A stretch of DNA of 51,807 bases from Escherichia coli (GTDB taxonomy: Bacteria; Pseudomonadota; Gammaproteobacteria; Enterobacterales; Enterobacteriaceae): assembly GCF_003334765.1 (NCBI RefSeq), contig NZ_QOWT01000029.1. One strand, written 5' to 3'. Position numbers and translations under genes: made by a program. The notes under the pieces are model-generated. The model had not been told where the DNA came from. It made no database searches and saw only the letters and a list, made by a program, of their open reading frames with translations. This document shows positions 1 through 33,869 of this stretch, piece after piece (the first letter of the stretch is position 1; each line of letters begins with the position of its first letter).

Positions 1-190
1 ACCGAGAAAGACACTGAAGTTCAAAACACCGAAAGAGATAATTGAAAGGGGTGTTGCATTGACAGATTGAATCTACAATTACGTACTTTAGTCATGTTAC
101 GCCGATCATGTTAATTTGCAGCATGCATCAGGCAGGTCAGGGACTTTTGTACTTCCTGTTTCGATTTAGTTGGCAATTTAGGTAGCAAAC

Positions 191-907
191 ATGCAGACCC
201 CGCACATTCTTATCGTTGAAGACGAGTTGGTAACACGCAACACGTTGAAAAGTATTTTCGAAGCGGAAGGCTATGATGTTTTCGAAGCGACAGATGGCGC
301 GGAAATGCATCAGATCCTCTCTGAATATGACATCAACCTGGTGATCATGGATATCAATCTGCCGGGTAAGAACGGTCTTCTGTTAGCGCGTGAACTGCGC
401 GAGCAGGCGAATGTTGCGTTGATGTTCCTGACTGGCCGTGACAACGAAGTCGATAAAATTCTCGGCCTCGAAATCGGTGCAGATGACTACATCACCAAAC
501 CGTTCAACCCGCGTGAACTGACGATTCGTGCACGCAACCTGCTGTCCCGTACTATGAATCTGGGTACTGTCAGCGAAGAACGTCGTAGCGTTGAAAGCTA
601 CAAGTTCAATGGTTGGGAACTGGACATCAACAGCCGTTCGTTGATCGGCCCTGATGGCGAGCAGTACAAGCTGCCGCGCAGCGAGTTCCGCGCCATGCTT
701 CACTTCTGTGAAAACCCAGGCAAAATTCAGTCTCGTGCTGAACTGCTGAAGAAAATGACCGGCCGTGAGCTGAAACCGCACGACCGTACTGTAGACGTGA
801 CGATCCGCCGTATTCGTAAACATTTCGAATCTACGCCGGATACGCCGGAAATCATCGCCACCATTCACGGTGAAGGTTATCGCTTCTGCGGTGATCTGGA
901 AGATTAA
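191..907 (+). CDS. arcA: Two-component response regulator ArcA (OmpR/PhoB family)
   Basis: 238-aa ORF; N-terminal CheY-like receiver and C-terminal winged-helix domain; sequence recognised as E. coli ArcA. Confidence 0.97.
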
Positions 908-924
908 TCGGCTTTACCACCGTC

Positions 925-960
925 AAAAAAACGGCGCTTTTTAGCGCCGTTTTTATTTTT
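925..960. terminator. Hairpin terminator between convergent arcA and creD
   Basis: GC stem ACGGCGC/GCGCCGT with A-run on 5' side and T-run on 3' side, so it can work on either strand. Confidence 0.7.
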
Positions 961-965
961 CAACC

Positions 966-2318
966 TTATTTCCAGATACGTAATTCATCGTCCGTTGTAA
1001 CTTCTTTACTGGCTTTCATTTTCGGCAGTGAAAACGCATACCAGTCGATATTACGAGTCACAAACATCATGCCGGCCAGCGCCACCACCAGCACACTGGT
1101 TCCCAACAACAGCGCGCTATCGGCAGAGTTGAGCAGTCCCCACATCACACCATCCAGCAACAACAGCGCGAGGGTAAACAACATGCTGTTGCGCCAGCCT
1201 TTCAATACCGCCTGCAAATAAATACCGTTCATTAACGCCCCAATCAGACTGGCGATTATCCATGCCACGGTAAAACCGGTATGTTCAGAAAGCGCCAGCA
1301 AGAGCAAATAAAACATCACCAATGAAAGCCCCACCAGCAAATATTGCATTGGGTGTAAGCGTTGCGCGGTGAGCGTTTCAAAAACAAAGAACGCCATAAA
1401 AGTCAGCGCAATCAGCAGAATGGCATACTTAGTCGCCCGGTCAGTTAATTGGTATTGATCTGCTGGCGTCGTCACTGCGACGCTAAACGCGGGGAAGTTT
1501 TCCCAGCCGGTATCATTGCCTGAAGCAAAACGCTCACCGAGATTATTAGCAAACCAGCTGCTTTGCCATTGCGCCTGAAAACCTGACTCGCTAACTTCCC
1601 GTTTGGCTGGTAGAAAATCACCTAAAAAACTGGGATGCGGCCAGTTGCTGGTTAAGGTCATTTCGCTATTACGCCCGGCAGGCACCACAGAAAGATCGCC
1701 GGTACCGCTTAAATTCAGTGCCATATTCAGCTGCAGGTTCTGCTTGCGCCAGTCCCCTTCGGGTAAAGGGATATGCACGCCCTGCCCGCCTTGCTCTAAC
1801 CCGGTACCGGGTTCAATGGTCAGCGCTGTTCCGTTAACTTCAGGCGCTTTCACCACACCAATACCACGCGCATCCCCGACGCTAATCACAATAAAGGGCT
1901 TGCCTAAGATGATATTTGGCGCGTTGAGCTCGCTAAGACGCGAAACATCGAAATCGGCTTTTAGCGTTAAATCACTGTGCCAGACCTGACCGGTATAAAT
2001 CCCTATCTTGCGTTCTTCCACGTTCTGATTGCCATCAACCATCAATGACTCAGGTAACCAAAAATGGATAAAACTTCGTTTCCGCTCCACGGTTTTATCC
2101 TCTTCCTGCACCGTATAAAGCTCGATCACAGGAATAGCGATAAGCGGCCCAACGAGTTTTTGCGGCCCGCTGGTACTTTGGCGAATCGCATCTTCCACAT
2201 CGCTACGGTAATCGGCACGTTCGACAATCACTTGCCGAATCAGCATTATCGGAATCAACAACAGCAATACTGCACCAAACAAGGTGGTCATTTTCCAGAA
2301 CAGGGGGGATTTCAACAT
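966..2318 (-). CDS. creD: Inner-membrane protein CreD
   Basis: 450-aa ORF, multi-pass hydrophobic C-terminal half; last gene of creABCD order. Confidence 0.93.
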   Translation of the reverse strand: MLKSPLFWKMTTLFGAVLLLLIPIMLIRQVIVERADYRSDVEDAIRQSTSGPQKLVGPLIAIPVIELYTVQEEDKTVERKRSFIHFWLPESLMVDGNQNVEERKIGIYTGQVWHSDLTLKADFDVSRLSELNAPNIILGKPFIVISVGDARGIGVVKAPEVNGTALTIEPGTGLEQGGQGVHIPLPEGDWRKQNLQLNMALNLSGTGDLSVVPAGRNSEMTLTSNWPHPSFLGDFLPAKREVSESGFQAQWQSSWFANNLGERFASGNDTGWENFPAFSVAVTTPADQYQLTDRATKYAILLIALTFMAFFVFETLTAQRLHPMQYLLVGLSLVMFYLLLLALSEHTGFTVAWIIASLIGALMNGIYLQAVLKGWRNSMLFTLALLLLDGVMWGLLNSADSALLLGTSVLVVALAGMMFVTRNIDWYAFSLPKMKASKEVTTDDELRIWK

Positions 2319-2375
2319 AGTCTTCTCCTTTGCAATGGCAGCAGGATACGAAGGCTATGTGGGAAGAATTTGAAG

Positions 2376-3800
2376 CTATGTGAAGTGACGGTGAAGTCGT
2401 AGCGAGGCCAGCACGCCACCTTCCTGCACGTTGCGCAGCGTGACTTCGCCGTTAAACAAACGGGCGACCTCACTGACGAACGCCAACCCCAGACCGCTGC
2501 TTTTTTGCCCATTTGCACGCGGCAAAGAGTAAAAGCGTTCAAAAATGCGTGACAGCGCGTAGTCAGGAATACCACTACCGGTATCCAGCACCTTAAGCGT
2601 GACGTGTTCCTGATCCACTTCGGCGCTTAGCGTTATACGACCGCTCTCGGGGGTAAAATCGATGGCGTTATCCAGTAAATTCCCCAGCGCCTGATCCAGT
2701 AACGCCGGTTCAGCAGCAACATTAACCTCGGTGGGCGTAACATGTAGAGTGATGTTTTTTTCTGCCAACTGCACGGTGCGCGCTTCGCTGACGCGGCGGA
2801 ATAATGCCGCCACATCAACAGCAGTCAAAACGACTTCCTGACGATTCTCCAGTCTTGCCTGGCGTAGTAACGTTTCCACCAGTGCCTGCATTCGCGCATT
2901 TTGCGTCAGAATGTTGTCGGTAAAACGAGCCACCACTTCCGGCGGCGGACCTTCGCGTAAAATTTCCGCCGCGCCACGAATCGCCGCCAGTGGGCTTTTT
3001 AGCTCATGGGTTAACGCATAAACATACTGCTCAATATAGTTTTTCCCTTCCAGCTTCACGCGCATACTTTCCAGCGCCTGCGCGAGTTTACGCAGTTCGC
3101 TACTACCGAGATCGGGAAGAGGAACGGGCTTATTGTCAGTGACGGAATCAGCATAGCGAGTGAGCCGGGCAATGGAGCGGTTGATCCACCAAACCATGCC
3201 TGCGCCAATCACCAGTGCGATCCCCAACAAAATGGCGCTGGCCCATAAAATTCGCCGCTCGCTGCGTTTAATGACCGGAGCCATCGCCGCGTTCGGTTTG
3301 CCTACGCTCAAAACGCCAATAAGCCGCGAGCCGTCCATAATCGGCGCGGCAACATACATCACCGAACTTTCGGGATCGGCAGGATTTTGCAACGTGCTAC
3401 GCGCACCATACTGACCACGCAACGTTAGCCAGACGTCATTCCAGCGCGAATAATCCTGTCCAACGGCTTTATTTGCCGAATCGAACAATACTTTGCCCTG
3501 CGCATCGGTCATATAGACATGATATTCATTGCGCACTTTGTTAATGCCACCAATATTGGCGCGAAACGGGCGATGTTGTAGCTGATTAAACGCCTGCGCC
3601 AGTTGCCCATGCGTTGGGTCCCCAGAGAGCAAATCGGGACGCGCCAGCTCCGCCAGTAACGTTGCCGTGTCGATCAACGTCCCCTCCGTTGCTCTTCGCA
3701 CGCCCGGTTTAACTTCTTTGACAAAAATAGCCAGTACGAACCAGGCCGCCACCGCCACCAGTAAAAAATAGCCCAGCAGCAACCGCATGCCGATACGCAT
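2376..3800 (-). CDS. creC: Sensor histidine kinase CreC
   Basis: 474-aa ORF with N-terminal TM segment, H-box (LTHELKSPLAAIRG) and ATPase G-boxes; start overlaps creB stop. Confidence 0.95.
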   Translation of the reverse strand: MRIGMRLLLGYFLLVAVAAWFVLAIFVKEVKPGVRRATEGTLIDTATLLAELARPDLLSGDPTHGQLAQAFNQLQHRPFRANIGGINKVRNEYHVYMTDAQGKVLFDSANKAVGQDYSRWNDVWLTLRGQYGARSTLQNPADPESSVMYVAAPIMDGSRLIGVLSVGKPNAAMAPVIKRSERRILWASAILLGIALVIGAGMVWWINRSIARLTRYADSVTDNKPVPLPDLGSSELRKLAQALESMRVKLEGKNYIEQYVYALTHELKSPLAAIRGAAEILREGPPPEVVARFTDNILTQNARMQALVETLLRQARLENRQEVVLTAVDVAALFRRVSEARTVQLAEKNITLHVTPTEVNVAAEPALLDQALGNLLDNAIDFTPESGRITLSAEVDQEHVTLKVLDTGSGIPDYALSRIFERFYSLPRANGQKSSGLGLAFVSEVARLFNGEVTLRNVQEGGVLASLRLHRHFT

Positions 3801-4489
3801 TACAAGCCCCTCAGGCTATATCCCATGCCGCGATGAGTATTAATCGGTGAAAGATCGGGGTTGATGGCGCGCAGCTTGGCACGCAGCGTTTTAATGTGGG
3901 TATCGACGGTGCGATCGTAGGTGTCCTGCGCATCTTCCCACACGCTATCCATTAGTTGCTGGCGGGACCAGACGCGGCCTGGCGACTTGAGTAACGTCTT
4001 CAGCAATAAAAACTCATACCGCGTCAGCGTTAATGGCGTGTCAAACCAGCTGATCTGCGCCGCTGGTTCATTCAATTCAAAATGACCAATACGGATGACG
4101 GGAGACGGCGTCGAGAACTTCTTCACCCGACGCAGTAAGGTGCGCACCCTGGCGCACACTTCGCGGGGTGAAAACGGTTTAGCCACATAGTCGTCAGCGC
4201 CAATTTCCAGCCCAAGCAGGCGATCGACCTCTTCACTTCGGGCCGTCAGGAACAGTACAGGTAACGCCGGATGGAGCGCCAGTAACTGGCGGCACAATTC
4301 AAAGCCACTGATATCAGGCAAACCAACGTCGAGAATCATGACGTCGGGAACCTGCTGGCGAGCTTTATCCAGCACCGGCAAACCTCGCTCAAAGACCTCG
4401 ACGGCAAAACCTTCCTGCTGCAACATGTAGACCAGCGTGTCGGCTATCCCTTGCTCATCTTCCACTAACCAGACCGTTTCCCGTTGCAT
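3800..4489 (-). CDS. creB: Response regulator CreB (OmpR family)
   Basis: 229-aa ORF with receiver and winged-helix domains, directly upstream of creC. Confidence 0.95.
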   Translation of the reverse strand: MQRETVWLVEDEQGIADTLVYMLQQEGFAVEVFERGLPVLDKARQQVPDVMILDVGLPDISGFELCRQLLALHPALPVLFLTARSEEVDRLLGLEIGADDYVAKPFSPREVCARVRTLLRRVKKFSTPSPVIRIGHFELNEPAAQISWFDTPLTLTRYEFLLLKTLLKSPGRVWSRQQLMDSVWEDAQDTYDRTVDTHIKTLRAKLRAINPDLSPINTHRGMGYSLRGL

Positions 4490-4501
4490 AAATCGCCTCT
4501 G

Positions 4502-4975
4502 TTATTGCCGCCACGGCATGACAGGAACCGCGCTAATCGCGTTTTTCGGCGAACCTTCTACAACTTTGTCGGAGTAAGCCAGATAAGCGAGCGCGTTGCG
4601 TTTGGCGTCATAAAAGCGCACGACCTGTAACGACTTAAAGACCAGGGACGTGCGTTTTTTGAATACTACCTCGCCCTGAGCTTTGCCGTTTTTAATACGA
4701 TCCGACAGTTCAATCGGCCCGACTTGCTGACAAGAAATGGCCGCATCGGAGGTATCTTCTGCCAGGCCCAATCCCCCTTTAATACCACCGGTTTTCGCCC
4801 GGCTCACATAACAGGTGACATTTTTCACATCGGGATCGTCAAAGGCTTCCACAACAATTTTGTGATCCGGGCCGATCATTTTAAATACGGTGTCGACCGA
4901 ACCAATCTCTTCTGCATGAGCCAATGGCCCCAGCATTATCAGGCTTAAAGACAGGATCAAATGCTTGTATTTCAT
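4502..4975 (-). CDS. creA: Periplasmic protein CreA
   Basis: 157-aa ORF with signal peptide ([21 protein letters not shown]); first gene of the cre cluster. Confidence 0.9.
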
Positions 4976-5185
4976 ATTGTTACCATTTTTATCTATTACA
5001 CGAGCAATTAGTTCGTCACGGTAAATAACATATTGATTAAGAACAAAATCTCAATTCTTTTATTTCCGTCAAGCCCTAAAACATACTCTACTAAGAAAAA
5101 AACACTGAATGCTAAAACAGCAAAAAATGCTATTATCCAATTACCTGATGTCAGGTGCTCGTTGTTGAAAGGATGAGGATATTTT

Positions 5186-6055
5186 ATGGATCAGGCCGGC
5201 ATTATTCGCGACCTTTTAATCTGGCTGGAAGGTCATCTGGATCAGCCCCTGTCGCTCGACAATGTAGCGGCGAAAGCAGGTTATTCCAAGTGGCACTTAC
5301 AGAGAATGTTTAAAGATGTCACTGGCCATGCTATTGGCGCGTATATTCGTGCTCGTCGTTTGTCGAAATCGGCGGTCGCACTACGCCTGACTGCGCGTCC
5401 GATTCTGGACATCGCGCTGCAATACCGCTTCGACTCTCAACAGACATTTACCCGCGCATTCAAGAAGCAGTTTGCCCAGACTCCTGCACTTTACCGCCGT
5501 TCTCCTGAATGGAGCGCCTTTGGTATTCGCCCGCCGCTACGTCTGGGTGAATTCACAATGCCAGAGCACAAATTTGTCACCCTGGAAGATACGCCGCTGA
5601 TTGGTGTTACCCAGAGCTACTCCTGTTCGCTGGAGCAAATCTCTGATTTCCGCCATGAAATGCGTTATCAGTTCTGGCACGATTTTCTCGGCAACGCGCC
5701 GACCATTCCGCCGGTGCTCTACGGCCTGAATGAAACGCGTCCGAGTCAGGATAAAGACGACGAACAAGAGGTATTCTATACCACCGCGTTAGCCCAGGAT
5801 CAGGCAGATGGCTATGTACTGACAGGGCATCCGGTGATGCTGCAGGGCGGCGAATATGTGATGTTTACCTATGAAGGTCTGGGAACCGGCGTGCAGGAGT
5901 TTATCCTGACGGTATACGGAACGTGCATGCCAATGCTCAATCTGACGCGCCGTAAAGGTCAGGATATTGAGCGATACTACCCGGCAGAAGACGCCAAAGC
6001 GGGAGATCGCCCAATTAATCTGCGCTGTGAACTGCTGATTCCTATCCGCCGTTAA
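5186..6055 (+). CDS. rob: AraC/XylS-family transcriptional regulator Rob
   Basis: 289-aa ORF with N-terminal dual HTH AraC domain and GyrI-like C-terminal domain. Confidence 0.95.
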   Translation: MDQAGIIRDLLIWLEGHLDQPLSLDNVAAKAGYSKWHLQRMFKDVTGHAIGAYIRARRLSKSAVALRLTARPILDIALQYRFDSQQTFTRAFKKQFAQTPALYRRSPEWSAFGIRPPLRLGEFTMPEHKFVTLEDTPLIGVTQSYSCSLEQISDFRHEMRYQFWHDFLGNAPTIPPVLYGLNETRPSQDKDDEQEVFYTTALAQDQADGYVLTGHPVMLQGGEYVMFTYEGLGTGVQEFILTVYGTCMPMLNLTRRKGQDIERYYPAEDAKAGDRPINLRCELLIPIRR

Positions 6056-6699
6056 CGCTGCAGCTCATCTAATGCAGGGGCGTCCAGATGCGAGATGTCC
6101 CCTGCGGTTTCAACGACCCAGCCAGACGCCAGCCACAGGCTTTCCTGATAATCCACGCGCGAAATAGAACAGTTACGTAGACGTAAGCGGCGCTCTGCCC
6201 ATGCTGGTAATCCGAGAATCGTACTCACCAGACATCCCAGTGCAATACCATGGCTCACCAGCAGCGGTCGGCTTCCCTGCGGTAAGTCCCGGCAAGATTC
6301 CAGTGCCGCATTGACGCGATCGCTGAGCTCCTGCATTGACTCGCCTTCAGGAATACGCCCGTCAACGGTGCCATTGACCAGCTGCCGACGCCAGTTCTCT
6401 TCTTCTTCGGTCAGAGAATCGATATGTCTTTTTTCCAGCACACCCATGTTTAATTCACGCAGGCGAGAATCAAAGATGATGTCACAGCCGCAGGCCTGGG
6501 CGATGATTTCCGCCGTACGCCGGGTGCGTCCTAAATCGCTACTGATAATATGCGTAATGCCAAGCTCTTTGGCACGGGTTGCCACCTGCATCGCCTGTTG
6601 CTCACCTTTGGCGGTCAGCGGGCTGTCAGACTGGCCCTGAATACGTCGCTCGGCGTTCCACTGCGTTTCACTGTGGCGGACTAGGTATACCTGTAACAT
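6052..6699 (-). CDS. gpmB: Histidine-phosphatase-family phosphoglycerate mutase-like protein GpmB
   Basis: 215-aa ORF with RHSET/RHG histidine phosphatase motif (LVRHSETQWN); stop overlaps rob stop. Confidence 0.93.
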   Translation of the reverse strand: MLQVYLVRHSETQWNAERRIQGQSDSPLTAKGEQQAMQVATRAKELGITHIISSDLGRTRRTAEIIAQACGCDIIFDSRLRELNMGVLEKRHIDSLTEEEENWRRQLVNGTVDGRIPEGESMQELSDRVNAALESCRDLPQGSRPLLVSHGIALGCLVSTILGLPAWAERRLRLRNCSISRVDYQESLWLASGWVVETAGDISHLDAPALDELQR

Positions 6700-6738
6700 G
6701 CTTTTTTTCCGTATACTGCTGTAACGTTAATTTTCTGA

Positions 6739-7272
<534 letters not shown>

Positions 7273-7356
7273 GACGGATAAGGCGTTCACGCCGCATCCG
7301 GCATTCGGTGCACGATGCCTGATGCGACGCTGCCGCGTCTTATCAGGCCTACAAAA
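7273..7356. repeat. REP element pair (BIME) filling the yjjX-trpR gap
   Basis: GCCGCATCCGGCA ... GCCTGATGCGACGC ... CTTATCAGGCCTACA palindromic units. Confidence 0.75.
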
Positions 7357-7698
<342 letters not shown>

Positions 7699-7730
7699 TT
7701 AGCGGGGGAAGCAAAATGCCTCCCCCGGTT

Positions 7731-7748
7731 GTACTCGCTAAAGAGTAC
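7731..7748 (-). promoter_or_regulatory. TrpR operator in the trpR promoter (autoregulation)
   Basis: Palindrome GTACTCGCTAAAGAGTAC, half-sites GTACT/AGTAC as in trp operators, about 50 bp upstream of trpR ATG. Confidence 0.7.
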
Positions 7749-7772
7749 GATAGCATATCATAAACGTGCGGA

Positions 7773-9710
7773 TCAGTAACGACGTCCCCATTCCGTGGCG
7801 CTCATCAACGTCGGTTTATCCCCCATGAAATAGCGGTAGTAAGCGTCATAAGCCAGCACGTTCTTCACATAACCGCGCGTCTCGGAGAACGGAATACTCT
7901 CGACAAATGCCACAGCGTCGATACGCCCGGCGCTGTTGCCAAGCCAGGTTCGCACCCGTCCAGGTCCGGCGTTATAAGCTGCTGAGGAGAAAATACGGTT
8001 ATTGCCAAACTGCTGATAAACATATTGCAGGTAACTGGTGCCAATGTTGATGTTCGTTTCCGGATCCAGCAATTGCCCAGGGCTGCTATAACTAGGAATA
8101 GAGAACATCTTCACCGTATGGGTCGCTGTACCAGGCATAATCTGCATCAGGCCGCTGGCCCCTACCGGTGATTTCACTTTCGGATTCCAGGCGCTCTCCT
8201 GACGGGCAATCGCCATCGCATAGCTTTGCGGGATCTCTTTCCCACTGGTGTAACGTTTGAAAAGATCGTTGTAAGCCAGCGGGAATCGCTCTTCCAGATG
8301 ATCCCAAAGCTTCCCGGCGATCGTTGCCTGAACGCTAAGATCCCACCATTGGTTATTGAAAGCATACCGAGCCAGTTGAGCCTGCTCTGTTTTTGACTTG
8401 CTCTTCACCAGATTGGCCCACTCGCTACGCGCGGTGTTATCGAGATTCCAGTACATCAACTCGCGCACGCGCGCCATCTCCGGCCCCTGAGTCAGGGCGC
8501 TGTCAACATTCTGCGGCGCTTTATCAATCTTCAGCTCATACTCTTCTCCGATGCGTTGTGCTGCAACCATCGGGTAGAAACCACGCTGTTGCATGAGTTG
8601 ATGCAAAATCTCTTTTGCTTCAGCTTCACGTCCGCGTTCCAGCAATAAATCCGCCTGCCAGTAACGCCATTCATCTTTCTCTTTTGCTTCCATCGGCAGA
8701 CGCGCCAGCCAGGTATTCAGGCCGCGACGATCGCCGGTGCCAAGTGCCATTCGCACACGGCGTTCAATCAACGACGTGGATTGCGAGCGCATAATGGCGT
8801 CATCGCGCCATTTCGCCTGCTCGTCGGTGACATCGTTGCCCATCAAACGCCAGGCGACGATATCGCGCAGCTCCTGAATCTGATCTTCATTAAGCTGCTG
8901 CGCCTGGGCAAGCGACGGGATCATCAGCCGTGCATTTTCAGCATCCTGCCGCGCCACACTGGCAAACGCCACCGCTGCCATTTGACGGGTAAAATCGGTC
9001 GCTCCGGTTGTACGCGCGAAGGTCAGTACCGTATTAGGGTTGTTCGCCAGTGAAATGATTGCCGAGGCGATAGTCTGGTAATCGGCAGGCATCTGCCCTG
9101 CCAGCACTGTTACCAGGCCAGTGTTACCCGCTTTCATCGCCAGACGGATACGCTCTAAATACGCCAGCGGATCTTGTTTACCTGACGCACGCCAGACGCT
9201 AAATAACTTGTCACAGGCGTTAGGCTGGCTCTTGCCGGTTAGCCACAGCTCTTTCGCCCCTTGCCAGGCTTCTTCACTCTGCCCGGTGTTCCATTTCGCA
9301 TAGTAGTAATTACATTGCGCTTCGGTAGTTCCGGGCTTTTCCGGGCTAAAGGCTAACAAGCCACGCCAGTCTTCACGCCGCGCCAGTTCATTGACGAAAC
9401 GAGATTGCAGCGTGCGAGCGGGAGGAAGCGTGGGGTTAGCGCGAACAAAGTTAGTGACCGTCACCGCCGGTTGATTCATCAGATCATCGGTGATCTGGCG
9501 GTATTCCAGGTAGGGATAAAGCGGATAATCCTTCAGTCTAGGCATCATTTGTTCGACCACATCCATCTGTCGATTATCCCAGGCCTGCTTGATTTGCGCG
9601 TAACGGCTACGCTGCTCATCCAGTGAGTCGGCTCGCGCCACGCTGCTGACCGTCAGCAGACAGACACCGGCAGCCAACAGCCGCCAGGTAACTTGTTTGG
9701 CTTTTTCCAC
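7773..9710 (-). CDS. slt: Soluble lytic murein transglycosylase Slt70
   Basis: ORF track 655 aa; start moved to GTG at 9710 to give 645 aa (MEKAKQVTWRLL... signal peptide); C-terminal lysozyme-like domain. Confidence 0.93.
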   Translation of the reverse strand: MEKAKQVTWRLLAAGVCLLTVSSVARADSLDEQRSRYAQIKQAWDNRQMDVVEQMMPRLKDYPLYPYLEYRQITDDLMNQPAVTVTNFVRANPTLPPARTLQSRFVNELARREDWRGLLAFSPEKPGTTEAQCNYYYAKWNTGQSEEAWQGAKELWLTGKSQPNACDKLFSVWRASGKQDPLAYLERIRLAMKAGNTGLVTVLAGQMPADYQTIASAIISLANNPNTVLTFARTTGATDFTRQMAAVAFASVARQDAENARLMIPSLAQAQQLNEDQIQELRDIVAWRLMGNDVTDEQAKWRDDAIMRSQSTSLIERRVRMALGTGDRRGLNTWLARLPMEAKEKDEWRYWQADLLLERGREAEAKEILHQLMQQRGFYPMVAAQRIGEEYELKIDKAPQNVDSALTQGPEMARVRELMYWNLDNTARSEWANLVKSKSKTEQAQLARYAFNNQWWDLSVQATIAGKLWDHLEERFPLAYNDLFKRYTSGKEIPQSYAMAIARQESAWNPKVKSPVGASGLMQIMPGTATHTVKMFSIPSYSSPGQLLDPETNINIGTSYLQYVYQQFGNNRIFSSAAYNAGPGRVRTWLGNSAGRIDAVAFVESIPFSETRGYVKNVLAYDAYYRYFMGDKPTLMSATEWGRRY

Positions 9711-11595: not shown

Positions 11596-11752
11596 AATGC
11601 CGGATGCGGCGTGAACGCCTTATCCGGCCTACAAACCAAGAAATTTCAATACGTTGTGAATCTCCAGGCCTGATAAGACGCGGTAAGCGTCGCATCAGGC
11701 ATTGAGCACCGAATGCCGGATGCGGCGTGAACACCTTTTCCGGTCTACAACA
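11596..11752. repeat. BIME cluster of several REP units
   Basis: Repeated GCCGGATGCGGCGTGAACGCCTTATCCGGCCTACA and GCCTGATAAGACGCG...CGCATCAGGC units. Confidence 0.8.
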
Positions 11753-24671: not shown

Positions 24672-24790
24672 CATGCCGGATGTGGCCTACAGTTCGGCAC
24701 AGACTTGTAGGCATGATAAGACGCGTCAAGCGTCGCATCAGGCATTGTGCGCCAACTGCCGGATGCGGCGTGAACGCCTTATCCGGCCTA
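24672..24790. repeat. BIME/REP cluster between yjjW and yjjV
   Basis: GCCGGATGTGGCCTACA, GATAAGACGCG...CGCATCAGGC, GCCGGATGCGGCGTGAACGCCTTATCCGGCCTACA; last unit overlaps the yjjV stop codon. Confidence 0.75.
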
Positions 24791-32578: not shown

Positions 32579-32665
32579 GCGAAGGTGGCGGAATTGGTAG
32601 ACGCGCTAGCTTCAGGTGTTAGTGTCCTTACGGACGTGGGGGTTCAAGTCCCCCCCCTCGCACCA
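32579..32665 (+). tRNA. leuV: tRNA-Leu (anticodon CAG)
   Basis: 87-nt sequence GCGAAGGTGGCGGAATTGGTAGACGCG...GGTTCAAGTCCCCCCCCTCGCACCA with anticodon loop CTTCAGGTG and encoded CCA; only one copy present. Confidence 0.95.
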
Positions 32666-33080: not shown

Positions 33081-33869
33081 ATGGCCTATCGTTCCGCACC
33101 GCTCTATGAAGATGTTATCTGGCGAACGCATCTCCAGCCGCAGGATGCTGGGCTTGCACAAGCCATACGGGCGACGATCGCCGAACATCGTGAACATTTG
33201 CTCGAGTTTATCCGCCTGGATGAACCCGCTCCGCTTAACGCCATGACGCTGGCGCAATGGTCATCAACGAATGCGCTAAGTTCTCTACTGGCGGTCTATT
33301 CCGATCATATCTATCGCAACCAACCAACGATGATCCGCGAGAACAAACCGCTGATCTCACTATGGGCGCAATGGTATATCGGCCTGATGGTGCCACCATT
33401 AATGTTGGCGCTGCTGACGCAGGAAAAAGCATTAGATGTGTCGCCGGAACATTTCCACGTTGAGTTTCACGAAACCGGACGCGCCGCCTGTTTCTGGGTC
33501 GATGTGTGTGAAGATAAAAACGCAACACTACATTCGCCGCAGCAGCGAATGGAAACGTTAATCAGTCAGGCGCTGGTTCCGGTAGTGCAGGCATTAGAAG
33601 CAACGGGAGAGATCAACGGCAAACTTATCTGGAGCAATACCGGTTATTTGATCAACTGGTATCTGACTGAGATGAAACAGCTGCTTGGCGAGGCGACGGT
33701 TGAATCGCTGCGCCATGCCCTCTTTTTTGAGAAAATGCTCACGAACGGTGAAGATAATCCACTCTGGCGTACCGTGGTACTGCGCGACGGCCTGCTGGTG
33801 CGCCGCACTTGCTGCCAGCGTTATCGCTTACCGGATGTGCAGCAATGTGGCGATTGTACGCTGAAATGA
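33081..33869 (+). CDS. fhuF: Ferric-siderophore reductase FhuF (2Fe-2S)
   Basis: 262-aa ORF with C-terminal C-C-x10-C-x2-C cluster motif (RRTCCQRYRLPDVQQCGDC). Confidence 0.93.
   Translation: MAYRSAPLYEDVIWRTHLQPQDAGLAQAIRATIAEHREHLLEFIRLDEPAPLNAMTLAQWSSTNALSSLLAVYSDHIYRNQPTMIRENKPLISLWAQWYIGLMVPPLMLALLTQEKALDVSPEHFHVEFHETGRAACFWVDVCEDKNATLHSPQQRMETLISQALVPVVQALEATGEINGKLIWSNTGYLINWYLTEMKQLLGEATVESLRHALFFEKMLTNGEDNPLWRTVVLRDGLLVRRTCCQRYRLPDVQQCGDCTLK

What the first reader, a model, noticed from the sequence alone, without database searches (positions are those of the whole stretch)
21..95. Short ORF divergent from arcA, possibly a truncated yjjY
A minus-strand ATG at 95, 96 bp upstream of the arcA start, opens a 24-codon ORF (MTKVRNCRFNLSMQHPFQLSLSVF). 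K-12 has a small gene, yjjY, in this position that I recall as longer (about 46 aa), so this may be a frameshifted or variant allele, or simply not expressed.
Basis: inference. Interest (0 to 1): 0.2.

Follow-up and report, generated by a model that had tools for sequence, protein, structure and literature searches.

The report
IS30 insertion truncating yjjY upstream of arcA
The 24-codon ORF is the first six codons of the small gene yjjY fused to the end of a mobile element (IS30) that has jumped into a preferred target site just upstream of the global regulator gene arcA; this is an ordinary event, although the same site has been hit repeatedly in unrelated E. coli strains.

Summary
The ORF at 21..95(-) exists as described, and its ATG is the yjjY start codon. 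It is not a frameshifted allele. Window 1..77 is the last 77 bp of IS30 (3' end of the transposase gene plus the right inverted repeat). IS30 sits after yjjY codon 6, with a 2-bp AT target duplication. The remaining 18 codons are antisense IS30 sequence.

The window's nearest complete relatives have an intact 46-aa yjjY, so the insertion is recent. Of 5,426 complete E. coli genomes, 11 carry the identical junction in at least 7 flank backgrounds. One K-12 W3110 derivative has IS30 at the same dinucleotide in the opposite orientation. One strain carries a 12-bp excision footprint.

I built a target-site matrix from 54 independent IS30 half-sites found in metagenomes. It ranks this AT dinucleotide first of 55,683 positions and also recovers the published lambda hot spot. 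So yjjY holds a natural IS30 hot spot.

The insertion lies in the long arcA leader. It separates an FNR-like site from arcA by 1.2 kb, and the transposase gene reads toward arcA. An effect on arcA regulation is plausible from published Tn5 and IS data but was not tested here.

Verdict: an ordinary IS disruption of low interest, with a modest new note about the hot spot.

The parts
1..77 (+). Last 77 bp of insertion sequence IS30; the element continues beyond the window start and is 1,221 bp in complete genomes with the same junction.
   Evidence: 100% identity over window 1-190 to 11 complete genomes in which an IS30-family transposase is annotated there. IS30 length is 1,221 bp in all 11.
2..70 (+). 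3' end of the IS30 transposase ORF (PRKTLKFKTPKEIIERGVALTD*, stop TGA at 68-70).
   Evidence: Annotated CDS WP_001254932.1 ends at L001 3070, which is window 70. Translation.
52..77 (+). IS30 right inverted repeat (26 bp, 23/26 complementary to the left repeat), ending ...GATTGAATCTACA.
   Evidence: Read from L001 1857-1882 versus 3052-3077. The 26-bp length is from established knowledge of IS30.
59..64 (+). Outward-facing perfect -35 hexamer TTGACA inside the right repeat, pointing toward arcA.
   Evidence: Sequence. This hexamer forms the known Pjunc promoter at IRR-IRL junctions (PMC9333248, PMC9330008). With a 17-nt spacer the flanking -10 here would be CGTACT (3/6). The scan tool reports no + strand promoter.
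78..79 (.). Right copy of the 2-bp target-site duplication (AT).
   Evidence: Left flank ...CGCAAT|IS30|ATTACG... versus wild type CGCAATTACG.
78..95 (-). Retained yjjY start: codons 1-6 (ATG ACT AAA GTA CGT AAT = MTKVRN).
   Evidence: Alignment to wild-type yjjY. Wild-type YjjY hits NCBIfam NF052365 at 96.5 bits.
21..95 (-). The chimeric 24-codon ORF: 6 yjjY codons plus 18 codons read antisense through the IS30 end.
   Evidence: No NCBIfam family match.
96..190 (+). yjjY-arcA intergenic region, the proximal part of the arcA 5' leader, unchanged from wild type.
   Evidence: 100% identity to wild-type genomes over window 76-190.
191..907 (+). arcA (response regulator), intact.
   Evidence: Annotated as WP_001194358.1 in all the related loci fetched whose annotation table lists arcA.

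Best explanation
An IS30 element has inserted into yjjY immediately after codon 6, duplicating the AT dinucleotide, with its transposase gene reading toward arcA. The 24-codon ORF is an accidental fusion of the yjjY start with the antisense strand of the IS30 right end, and yjjY is inactivated.

The insertion is recent in this lineage. It occurred at a sequence that is a natural near-palindromic IS30 hot spot (ATCAAGAACGCA-AT-TACGTACTTTAG). The same dinucleotide has been hit independently in several E. coli lineages, including K-12 laboratory derivatives.

Inferred, not shown: the site lies inside the long arcA 5' leader, downstream of an FNR-like site. The insertion therefore moves the distal arcA control region 1.2 kb away and places IS30-borne transcription in the sense direction upstream of arcA. 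This probably alters arcA regulation rather than abolishing it.
For: Structure
- Window 1-190 is 100% identical to 11 complete genomes with an annotated IS30 at this place.
- Alignment of both junctions against wild type shows CGCA-AT|IS30(1,221 bp)|AT-TACG.
- Window 2-70 translates to the transposase C-terminus.

Recent origin
- The nearest complete genome, HSP425, has 0 substitutions in 3 kb of right flank and about 100% identity over window 78-25000. It has an intact yjjY, as does 14EC017.

Recurrence
- The carriers fall into at least 7 flank backgrounds, differing by up to 66 substitutions in 3 kb.
- K-12 derivatives carry the insertion (HST04, TUM1509, B25FEP, M24FEP), while the K-12-like strain 4FA, whose flank is identical to HST04's, has an intact yjjY. 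That K-12 MG1655 itself has intact yjjY is from memory.
- A W3110 derivative has IS30 at the same AT in the opposite orientation.
- Strain 90-9280 has a 12-bp IS30 footprint.
- The 401-bp wild-type region is contiguous in 5,412 of 5,426 genomes. The 12 broken cases equal the number of IS30 carriers.

Hot spot
- A matrix built from 54 distinct IS30 half-sites in metagenome contigs, none from yjjY, ranks this AT first of 55,683 positions. It also picks lambda coordinate 33290, the published LHS hot spot, with an equal score (PMC9333248).
- Sites scoring as well occur once per 61-209 kb.

arcA link
- An FNR-like site, TTGATATATGTCAA, lies 278-291 bp upstream of the arcA ATG, distal to the insertion.
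- Antisense transcripts cover all of yjjY (PMC7373196).
- Tn5 insertions in yjjY that are sense to arcA are selected and act through arcA regulation (PMC12956098).
- IS5 and IS1 insertions further upstream raise anaerobic arcA expression and are adaptive in the mouse gut (PMC5094792).
Against: - The window holds only 77 bp of IS30. The left junction, the rest of yjjY and the full element are inferred from other genomes, not seen in this one.
- Flanks within about 370 bp to the left and 446 bp to the right of the IS are nearly invariant among most carriers. Transfer of a short IS-containing patch by recombination therefore cannot be excluded for some natural pairs.
- No hybrid promoter passes the scan criteria, and no proximal arcA promoter is detected in 78-190. 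The direction and size of any effect on arcA are unknown.
- The orientation bias (at least 7 backgrounds in one orientation against 1 in the other) is only marginal statistically, roughly p 0.04-0.07 two-sided by my own binomial arithmetic.
- My matrix is built from few independent sites (32 clusters).
Confidence: 0.9

Rival explanations
1. One reading: a frameshifted or otherwise variant yjjY allele produced by a small indel or point changes.
For: The first 6-7 residues match YjjY and the ORF is shorter than 46 aa.
Against: No indel exists within the homologous part. Identity to yjjY ends at window 78 and is replaced by 77 bp that are 100% IS30. The remaining yjjY codons 7-46 lie 1.2 kb away in carriers.
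Confidence: 0.01
2. A single ancestral IS30 insertion, spread to other lineages by descent or by homologous recombination of a short patch. On this reading it is not a hot spot hit repeatedly.
For: IS30 copies at the site differ by only 0-2 substitutions, and the immediate flanks are nearly invariant.
Against: - K-12 laboratory derivatives carry it, while the K-12-like strain 4FA does not.
- The opposite-orientation insertion at the same dinucleotide must be independent.
- Close non-carrier relatives exist for the window strain and for EC24.26.
- The site is top-ranked by an independently derived IS30 target matrix.
Confidence: 0.05
3. Recurrence and orientation bias are driven mainly by selection for altered arcA expression, making this an adaptive regulatory mutation. 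The hot spot would only supply the mutations. This is not exclusive of the best explanation.
For: Tn5 insertions in yjjY that are sense to arcA are enriched and fitter (PMC12956098). IS insertions in the arcA regulatory region are adaptive in the mouse gut (PMC5094792). At least 7 backgrounds have the transposase reading toward arcA against 1 reversed. At metagenomic hot spots IS30 is found in both orientations.
Against: - Only 12 of 5,426 genomes carry it, so there is no sign of sweeps.
- No other IS type interrupts the 401-bp region in any complete genome. That points to IS30 target bias rather than general selection for disruption.
- No expression or fitness data exist for this allele.
Confidence: 0.3
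4. The 24-aa chimeric ORF is a new functional small protein.
For: It keeps the native yjjY start codon and upstream sequence. The same first four new residues (CRFN) persist in frame in the footprint allele of strain 90-9280.
Against: - It has no family match.
- There is no obvious Shine-Dalgarno sequence upstream of the ATG (sequence).
- The tail is an arbitrary antisense reading of an IS end.
- PGAP does not call it in any carrier.
- Published work attributes yjjY insertion phenotypes to arcA, not to YjjY (PMC12956098).
Confidence: 0.02
5. Assembly artefact: a contig wrongly joined to an IS30 end.
For: The window starts inside a repeated element, a typical place for assembly breaks.
Against: The identical junction, with a matching left junction and target duplication, is present in 11 finished genomes from different laboratories and platforms.
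Confidence: 0.02

Closest known systems
IS30 (IS30 family insertion sequence of E. coli) inserted at a 'hot spot' target such as the lambda LHS site
   Same: The terminal sequence is identical. The element is 1,221 bp with a 2-bp target duplication and a near-palindromic target. The right half-site TACGTACTTTAGTC compares with lambda TAGTGAATTTAGTC (10/14 identical). The matrix score equals that of LHS (PMC9333248).
   Different: This target lies in the chromosomal yjjY gene and arcA leader. I found no paper that names it as an IS30 hot spot.
IS5/IS1 insertions and Tn5 insertions in the arcA upstream regulatory region (yjjY, yjjY/yjtD), selected in the mouse gut and in laboratory evolution
   Same: A mobile element is inserted upstream of arcA within its long leader and control region. 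Sense orientation toward arcA is favoured in the Tn5 data (PMC5094792, PMC12956098).
   Different: Those insertions are by other elements and mostly lie 108-240 bp beyond the yjjY stop. This one is IS30, at -114 from the arcA ATG, and is seen in natural isolates. No expression or fitness measurement exists for it.
YjjY (NCBIfam NF052365, 46-aa protein of unknown function)
   Same: It shares the start codon and the first six codons.
   Different: Residues 7-24 are unrelated and there is no family match. It is a disrupted remnant, not an allele.
IS-created hybrid promoters (-35 in the IS end plus -10 in the flank), e.g. the IS30 Pjunc promoter
   Same: The right repeat brings a perfect TTGACA 13 bp from the IS tip, facing arcA.
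   Different: The flank offers only CGTACT at 17-nt spacing. The scan finds no promoter.

Membership tests
IS30 insertion sequence | Terminal sequence and right inverted repeat of IS30 | tested here: met
   Window 1-77 is identical to the last 77 bp of all 11 full copies examined. IRR and IRL are 23/26 complementary.
IS30 insertion sequence | Full element of 1,221 bp encoding a DDE transposase | tested here: inconclusive
   Only 77 bp, with the last 22 codons of the transposase, lie in the window. The element is 1,221 bp with an annotated 383-aa transposase in the 11 genomes sharing the junction. The catalytic motif was not examined.
IS30 insertion sequence | 2-bp target-site duplication | tested here: met
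   AT is present on both sides in all 11 carriers and in the reverse-orientation copy. Only the right copy (78-79) is visible in the window. Of 29 distinct full metagenomic copies, 18 also show 2-bp duplications.
IS30 insertion sequence | Insertion into a near-palindromic hot-spot target | tested here: met
   The site is 8/12 symmetric. It ranks first of 55,683 positions with a matrix from independent sites. The matrix recovers lambda LHS at 33290.
YjjY family protein (NF052365) | Full-length match above the curated cut-off (70 bits) | tested here: not met
   Wild-type 46 aa scores 96.5 bits. The 24-aa ORF gives no match. Only 6 codons are homologous.
IS-generated hybrid promoter driving the neighbouring gene | A -35 in the IS end correctly spaced from a usable -10 in the flank | tested here: not met
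   TTGACA is at 59-64. The -10 candidates are CGTACT (17-nt spacer) and TACTTT (19 nt). No + strand site passes the scan. Transcription was not measured.
Adaptive cis-regulatory IS insertion upstream of arcA | Changed arcA expression or fitness caused by the insertion | not testable with these tools
   Only positional evidence is available: distal to the insertion lies an FNR-like site, and published analogues exist.

The most novel reading that the evidence does not exclude
The IS30 hot spot inside the arcA leader may work as a recurrent and reversible mutational switch. On this reading IS30 enters preferentially or selectively in the orientation reading toward arcA, retunes ArcA levels in particular niches, and can leave again. 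The 12-bp footprint allele and the K-12 laboratory derivatives carrying the insertion would be traces of this cycle.
Probability: 0.1. Interest if true: 0.5.

Novelty: new member of a known kind. Interest (0 to 1): 0.2.

Why it matters
For annotation, the 24-codon ORF should not be called a yjjY variant. The locus is yjjY::IS30. The 43-aa 'hypothetical / YjjY family' ORF that PGAP calls on the other side is the matching remnant.

Biologically, the modest point of interest is that a strong natural IS30 target sits 114 bp upstream of the arcA start codon, inside its leader. Any strain with active IS30 can therefore readily generate an arcA regulatory variant. This region is already known to be a target of adaptive insertions in the gut and in laboratory evolution.

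It is also a possible unnoticed background difference between laboratory K-12 derivatives such as HST04 and TUM1509.

Tried and rejected
- The scan of one-genome-per-species contigs for the IS30 right end gave only 5 loci, too few for a consensus.
- Literature searches for IS30+yjjY and IS30+GOHS found nothing. IS30+arcA gave no relevant paper. So I could not compare the site with the published 24-bp consensus of Olasz et al. 1998, and derived a matrix from data.
- The search for the origin of strains B25FEP-TDT and M24FEP-TDT was unproductive.
- I looked for details of the arcA promoters (Compan & Touati 1994) in open papers. I found only statements that Fnr regulates arcA.
- Promoter and terminator scans of the junction and of the whole IS30 found no + strand promoter and no intrinsic terminator. 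The single minus-strand hit (114..85) ends inside yjjY and was disregarded.
- The frameshift hypothesis was rejected by alignment.
- The 40-bp size difference in strain G4/9 turned out to be a tandem duplication in the arcA leader, unrelated to IS30.

Full report
**Observation**

The minus-strand ORF at 21..95 (24 aa, MTKVRNCRFNLSMQHPFQLSLSVF) is present exactly as described. arcA occupies 191..907 on the plus strand and creD follows at 966..2318 on the minus strand. A 24-codon ORF is not remarkable in itself: there are 24 ORFs of at least 20 aa in the first 1.5 kb. What matters is that its ATG and first 18 nt coincide with the annotated start of yjjY in wild-type genomes. There yjjY is 141 nt / 46 aa, MTKVRNCVLDALSINVNNIISLVVGTFPQDPTVSKTAVILTILTAT.

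**What is really there**

A megablast of window 1-190 against 5,426 complete E. coli genomes splits the query.
- Positions 76-190 match the yjjY-arcA region of every genome.
- Positions 1-78 match IS30 copies on chromosomes and plasmids.
- Only 11 genomes match end to end.

In strain HST04 the annotated IS30 transposase CDS ends at the base corresponding to window 70. Aligning both junctions of HST04 with a wild-type locus gives ...AACGCA-AT | TGTAGATTCAAT...(IS30)...ATTGAATCTACA | AT-TACGTACTTTAGTCAT..., against wild type AACGCAATTACG.
- The element is 1,221 bp and is flanked by a 2-bp AT duplication in all 11 genomes.
- Window 2-70 translates to the transposase C-terminus, PRKTLKFKTPKEIIERGVALTD*.
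- The ORF therefore consists of yjjY codons 1-6 (window 95..78) plus 18 codons read from the antisense strand of the IS30 end.
- Cys7 is conserved only because IS30 ends in TGT where yjjY has TGC.
- Wild-type YjjY matches NCBIfam NF052365 (96.5 bits, cut-off 70). The chimeric peptide matches nothing.

There is no frameshift or indel.

**The insertion is recent**

The window's genome is not in the complete-genome collection. Over window 78-25000 its best matches (HSP425, H3 and others, about 100% identity) have an intact yjjY. So does 14EC017, the best match for 26900-51807. HSP425 has 0 substitutions in the 3 kb to the right of the insertion.

**The insertion is recurrent**

- The 11 carriers differ from each other by up to 66 substitutions in 3 kb of right flank and up to 39 in 1.2 kb of left flank. 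They carry different creD, creC and yjtD protein alleles.
- I count at least seven backgrounds: the K-12 laboratory group (HST04, TUM1509, B25FEP-TDT, M24FEP-TDT); 55989; 2273-PO3/NCTC11121 (with SCPM-O-B-12142 as a mosaic relative); FHI_NMBU_11; MS20659; EC24.26; and the window strain.
- The K-12-like strain 4FA, whose flank is identical to HST04's, has an intact yjjY. That K-12 MG1655 itself has intact yjjY is from memory. On that basis the laboratory derivatives would have acquired the insertion in culture, although this was not checked against an MG1655 or wild-type W3110 sequence.
- A W3110 derivative (NZ_CP165600) has IS30 at the very same AT in the opposite orientation.
- Strain O114:H49 90-9280 has a 12-bp insertion, TGAATCTACAAT, at the site. 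This is the last 10 bp of IS30 plus the duplicated AT. It is the product expected from deletion between two ATTG microhomologies, and it gives an in-frame 50-aa YjjY, MTKVRN-CRFN-CVLDAL....
- A 401-bp wild-type probe covering the FNR-like site, yjjY and the arcA start is contiguous in 5,412 of 5,426 genomes. It is broken in 12, the same number as the IS30 carriers, and absent in 2. The count is consistent with no other element interrupting this stretch in any complete genome, though the 12 were not individually matched to the carriers.

Caveat: the first ~370 bp to the left and ~446 bp to the right of the IS are almost invariant in most strains. Patch transfer by recombination therefore cannot be excluded for every natural pair.

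**Why here: a hot spot**

IS30 is known to use copy-out-paste-in transposition, to make 2-bp duplications and to prefer near-palindromic 'hot spot' sequences such as LHS in phage lambda (PMC9333248). I could not retrieve the published consensus, so I derived one.
- An exact-match scan of metagenome contigs for the IS30 right end returned 120 loci. These gave 54 distinct half-sites in 32 clusters, none from yjjY.
- The half-site consensus is: R-Y duplication, G4, C5, T-rich 7-9, T10, T11, A13.
- Both yjjY half-sites fit it: AT-TACGTACTTTAG and, on the other strand, AT-TGCGTTCTTGAT.
- Summing both halves, the matrix ranks the actual AT dinucleotide first of 55,683 positions (8 kb of wild-type locus plus 47.7 kb of the window), whether or not clusters are down-weighted.
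- As a positive control, within lambda 33200-33520 the best position is 33290. The literature places the LHS insertion point there, and its score (13.9) equals that of yjjY (13.8).
- In 1.04 Mb of background, equally good sites occur once per 61-209 kb. That is a few dozen per genome.

**Consequences for arcA (inferred)**

- The insertion point is 114 bp upstream of the arcA ATG.
- The best FNR-like sequence of the region, TTGATATATGTCAA (1 mismatch), lies 278-291 bp upstream, beyond the yjjY stop and so distal to the IS.
- Fnr is reported to activate arcA (Compan & Touati 1994, as cited in PMC1805755 and PMC7567609).
- An antisense transcript covers all of yjjY (PMC7373196). This fits arcA leaders that start upstream of yjjY.
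- The IS therefore splits the arcA leader, moves the distal control region 1.2 kb away, and places the transposase gene in the sense direction. The simple scan detects no intrinsic terminator before arcA.
- The right repeat carries a perfect outward -35 (TTGACA, 59-64). The flank provides only CGTACT at 17-nt spacing, so a strong hybrid promoter is not evident.

Published experiments make a regulatory effect plausible.
- Tn5 insertions in yjjY, mostly sense to arcA, are enriched in serial culture and act through arcA regulation rather than through loss of YjjY (PMC12956098).
- IS5 and IS1 insertions and a 4-bp insertion in the yjjY/yjtD spacer are adaptive in the mouse gut and raise anaerobic arcA expression (PMC5094792).
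- Eleven complete genomes plus the window strain, representing at least seven independent backgrounds, have the transposase reading toward arcA; one genome is reversed. At metagenomic hot spots both orientations occur. The bias is suggestive of selection but statistically marginal.

**Comparison with what is known, and verdict**

This is an IS30 insertion at a hot-spot target. The element is a known kind, and the allele has been present and annotated as IS30 in public genomes. The chimeric ORF is a by-product and should be annotated as disrupted yjjY.

I did not find yjjY described as an IS30 hot spot in the searched literature. The recurrence at a site inside the arcA leader is therefore a small new observation. 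Interest is low (0.2).

The most novel reading that the evidence does not exclude is a recurrent, reversible IS30 switch tuning arcA. I rate it about 10% likely.

Noticed in passing
L015 (NZ_CP024240.1, E. coli O114:H49 90-9280) 3003-3014: A 12-bp IS30 excision footprint (TGAATCTACAAT) sits at the same yjjY site. It gives an in-frame 50-aa YjjY with the insertion CRFN, and is explained by deletion between ATTG microhomologies at the two IS ends.
   Followed up: yes
L016 (NZ_CP165600.1, K-12 W3110 derivative) 1806-3026: IS30 is inserted at the identical AT dinucleotide of yjjY but in the opposite orientation (transposase reading away from arcA).
   Followed up: yes
L001 1732-1863 (-) and equivalents in all carriers: PGAP annotates the distal yjjY remnant as a 43-aa 'hypothetical' or 'YjjY family' protein (WP_100209180.1). 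Its start codon is a non-canonical ATC lying inside the IS30 left repeat (IYNCVLDAL...). This is an annotation artefact of the insertion.
   Followed up: yes
L143 (NZ_CP060073.1, strain G4/9) about 351-390: A 40-bp tandem duplication lies in the yjjY-arcA intergenic region (arcA 5' leader), unrelated to IS30. It is another natural variant of the arcA leader.
   Followed up: partly
window 78-25000 versus 26900-51807: The two halves of the window have different nearest complete genomes. HSP425, H3 and others match the first half at about 100%. 14EC017 matches the second half at 100%, with the next best at 99.4%. This suggests a recombinant mosaic in this chromosomal region.
   Followed up: no
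window 7272-7349 (+), 11667-11745 (-), 24710-24788 (-): Three Rfam naRNA4 (RF02564) matches, 69-77 bits, in intergenic positions.
   Followed up: no
window 32579-32665 (+): This is the only tRNA gene in the window, tRNA-Leu(CAG). From memory K-12 has a three-gene leuQPV cluster in this neighbourhood, so the copy number may differ. Not checked.
   Followed up: no
metagenome loci L023-L142 (e.g. L020, L021, L027, L059): Most metagenomic IS30 copies sit in one family of related sites (e.g. GAAATATTAAAAAAGGCT-AC-CGCGCTCTTGATGTCAGA), used in both orientations. Of 29 distinct full copies, 11 have non-matching 2-bp flanks. This suggests flank exchange by recombination between copies or IS30-mediated rearrangements. 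The identity of the host locus was not determined.
   Followed up: partly
L013, L014 (B25FEP-TDT, M24FEP-TDT) creC, locus 6377-7801: These two French laboratory strains share the yjjY::IS30 allele. They also share a creC protein allele (WP_001219577.1) that differs from the HST04/W3110 one (WP_001219559.1). Their history could not be traced.
   Followed up: partly
NZ_CP082073.1 (strain MS20659): This bloodstream isolate shows 23 places matching the IS30 end (median 2 per genome), which indicates an IS30 expansion.
   Followed up: no
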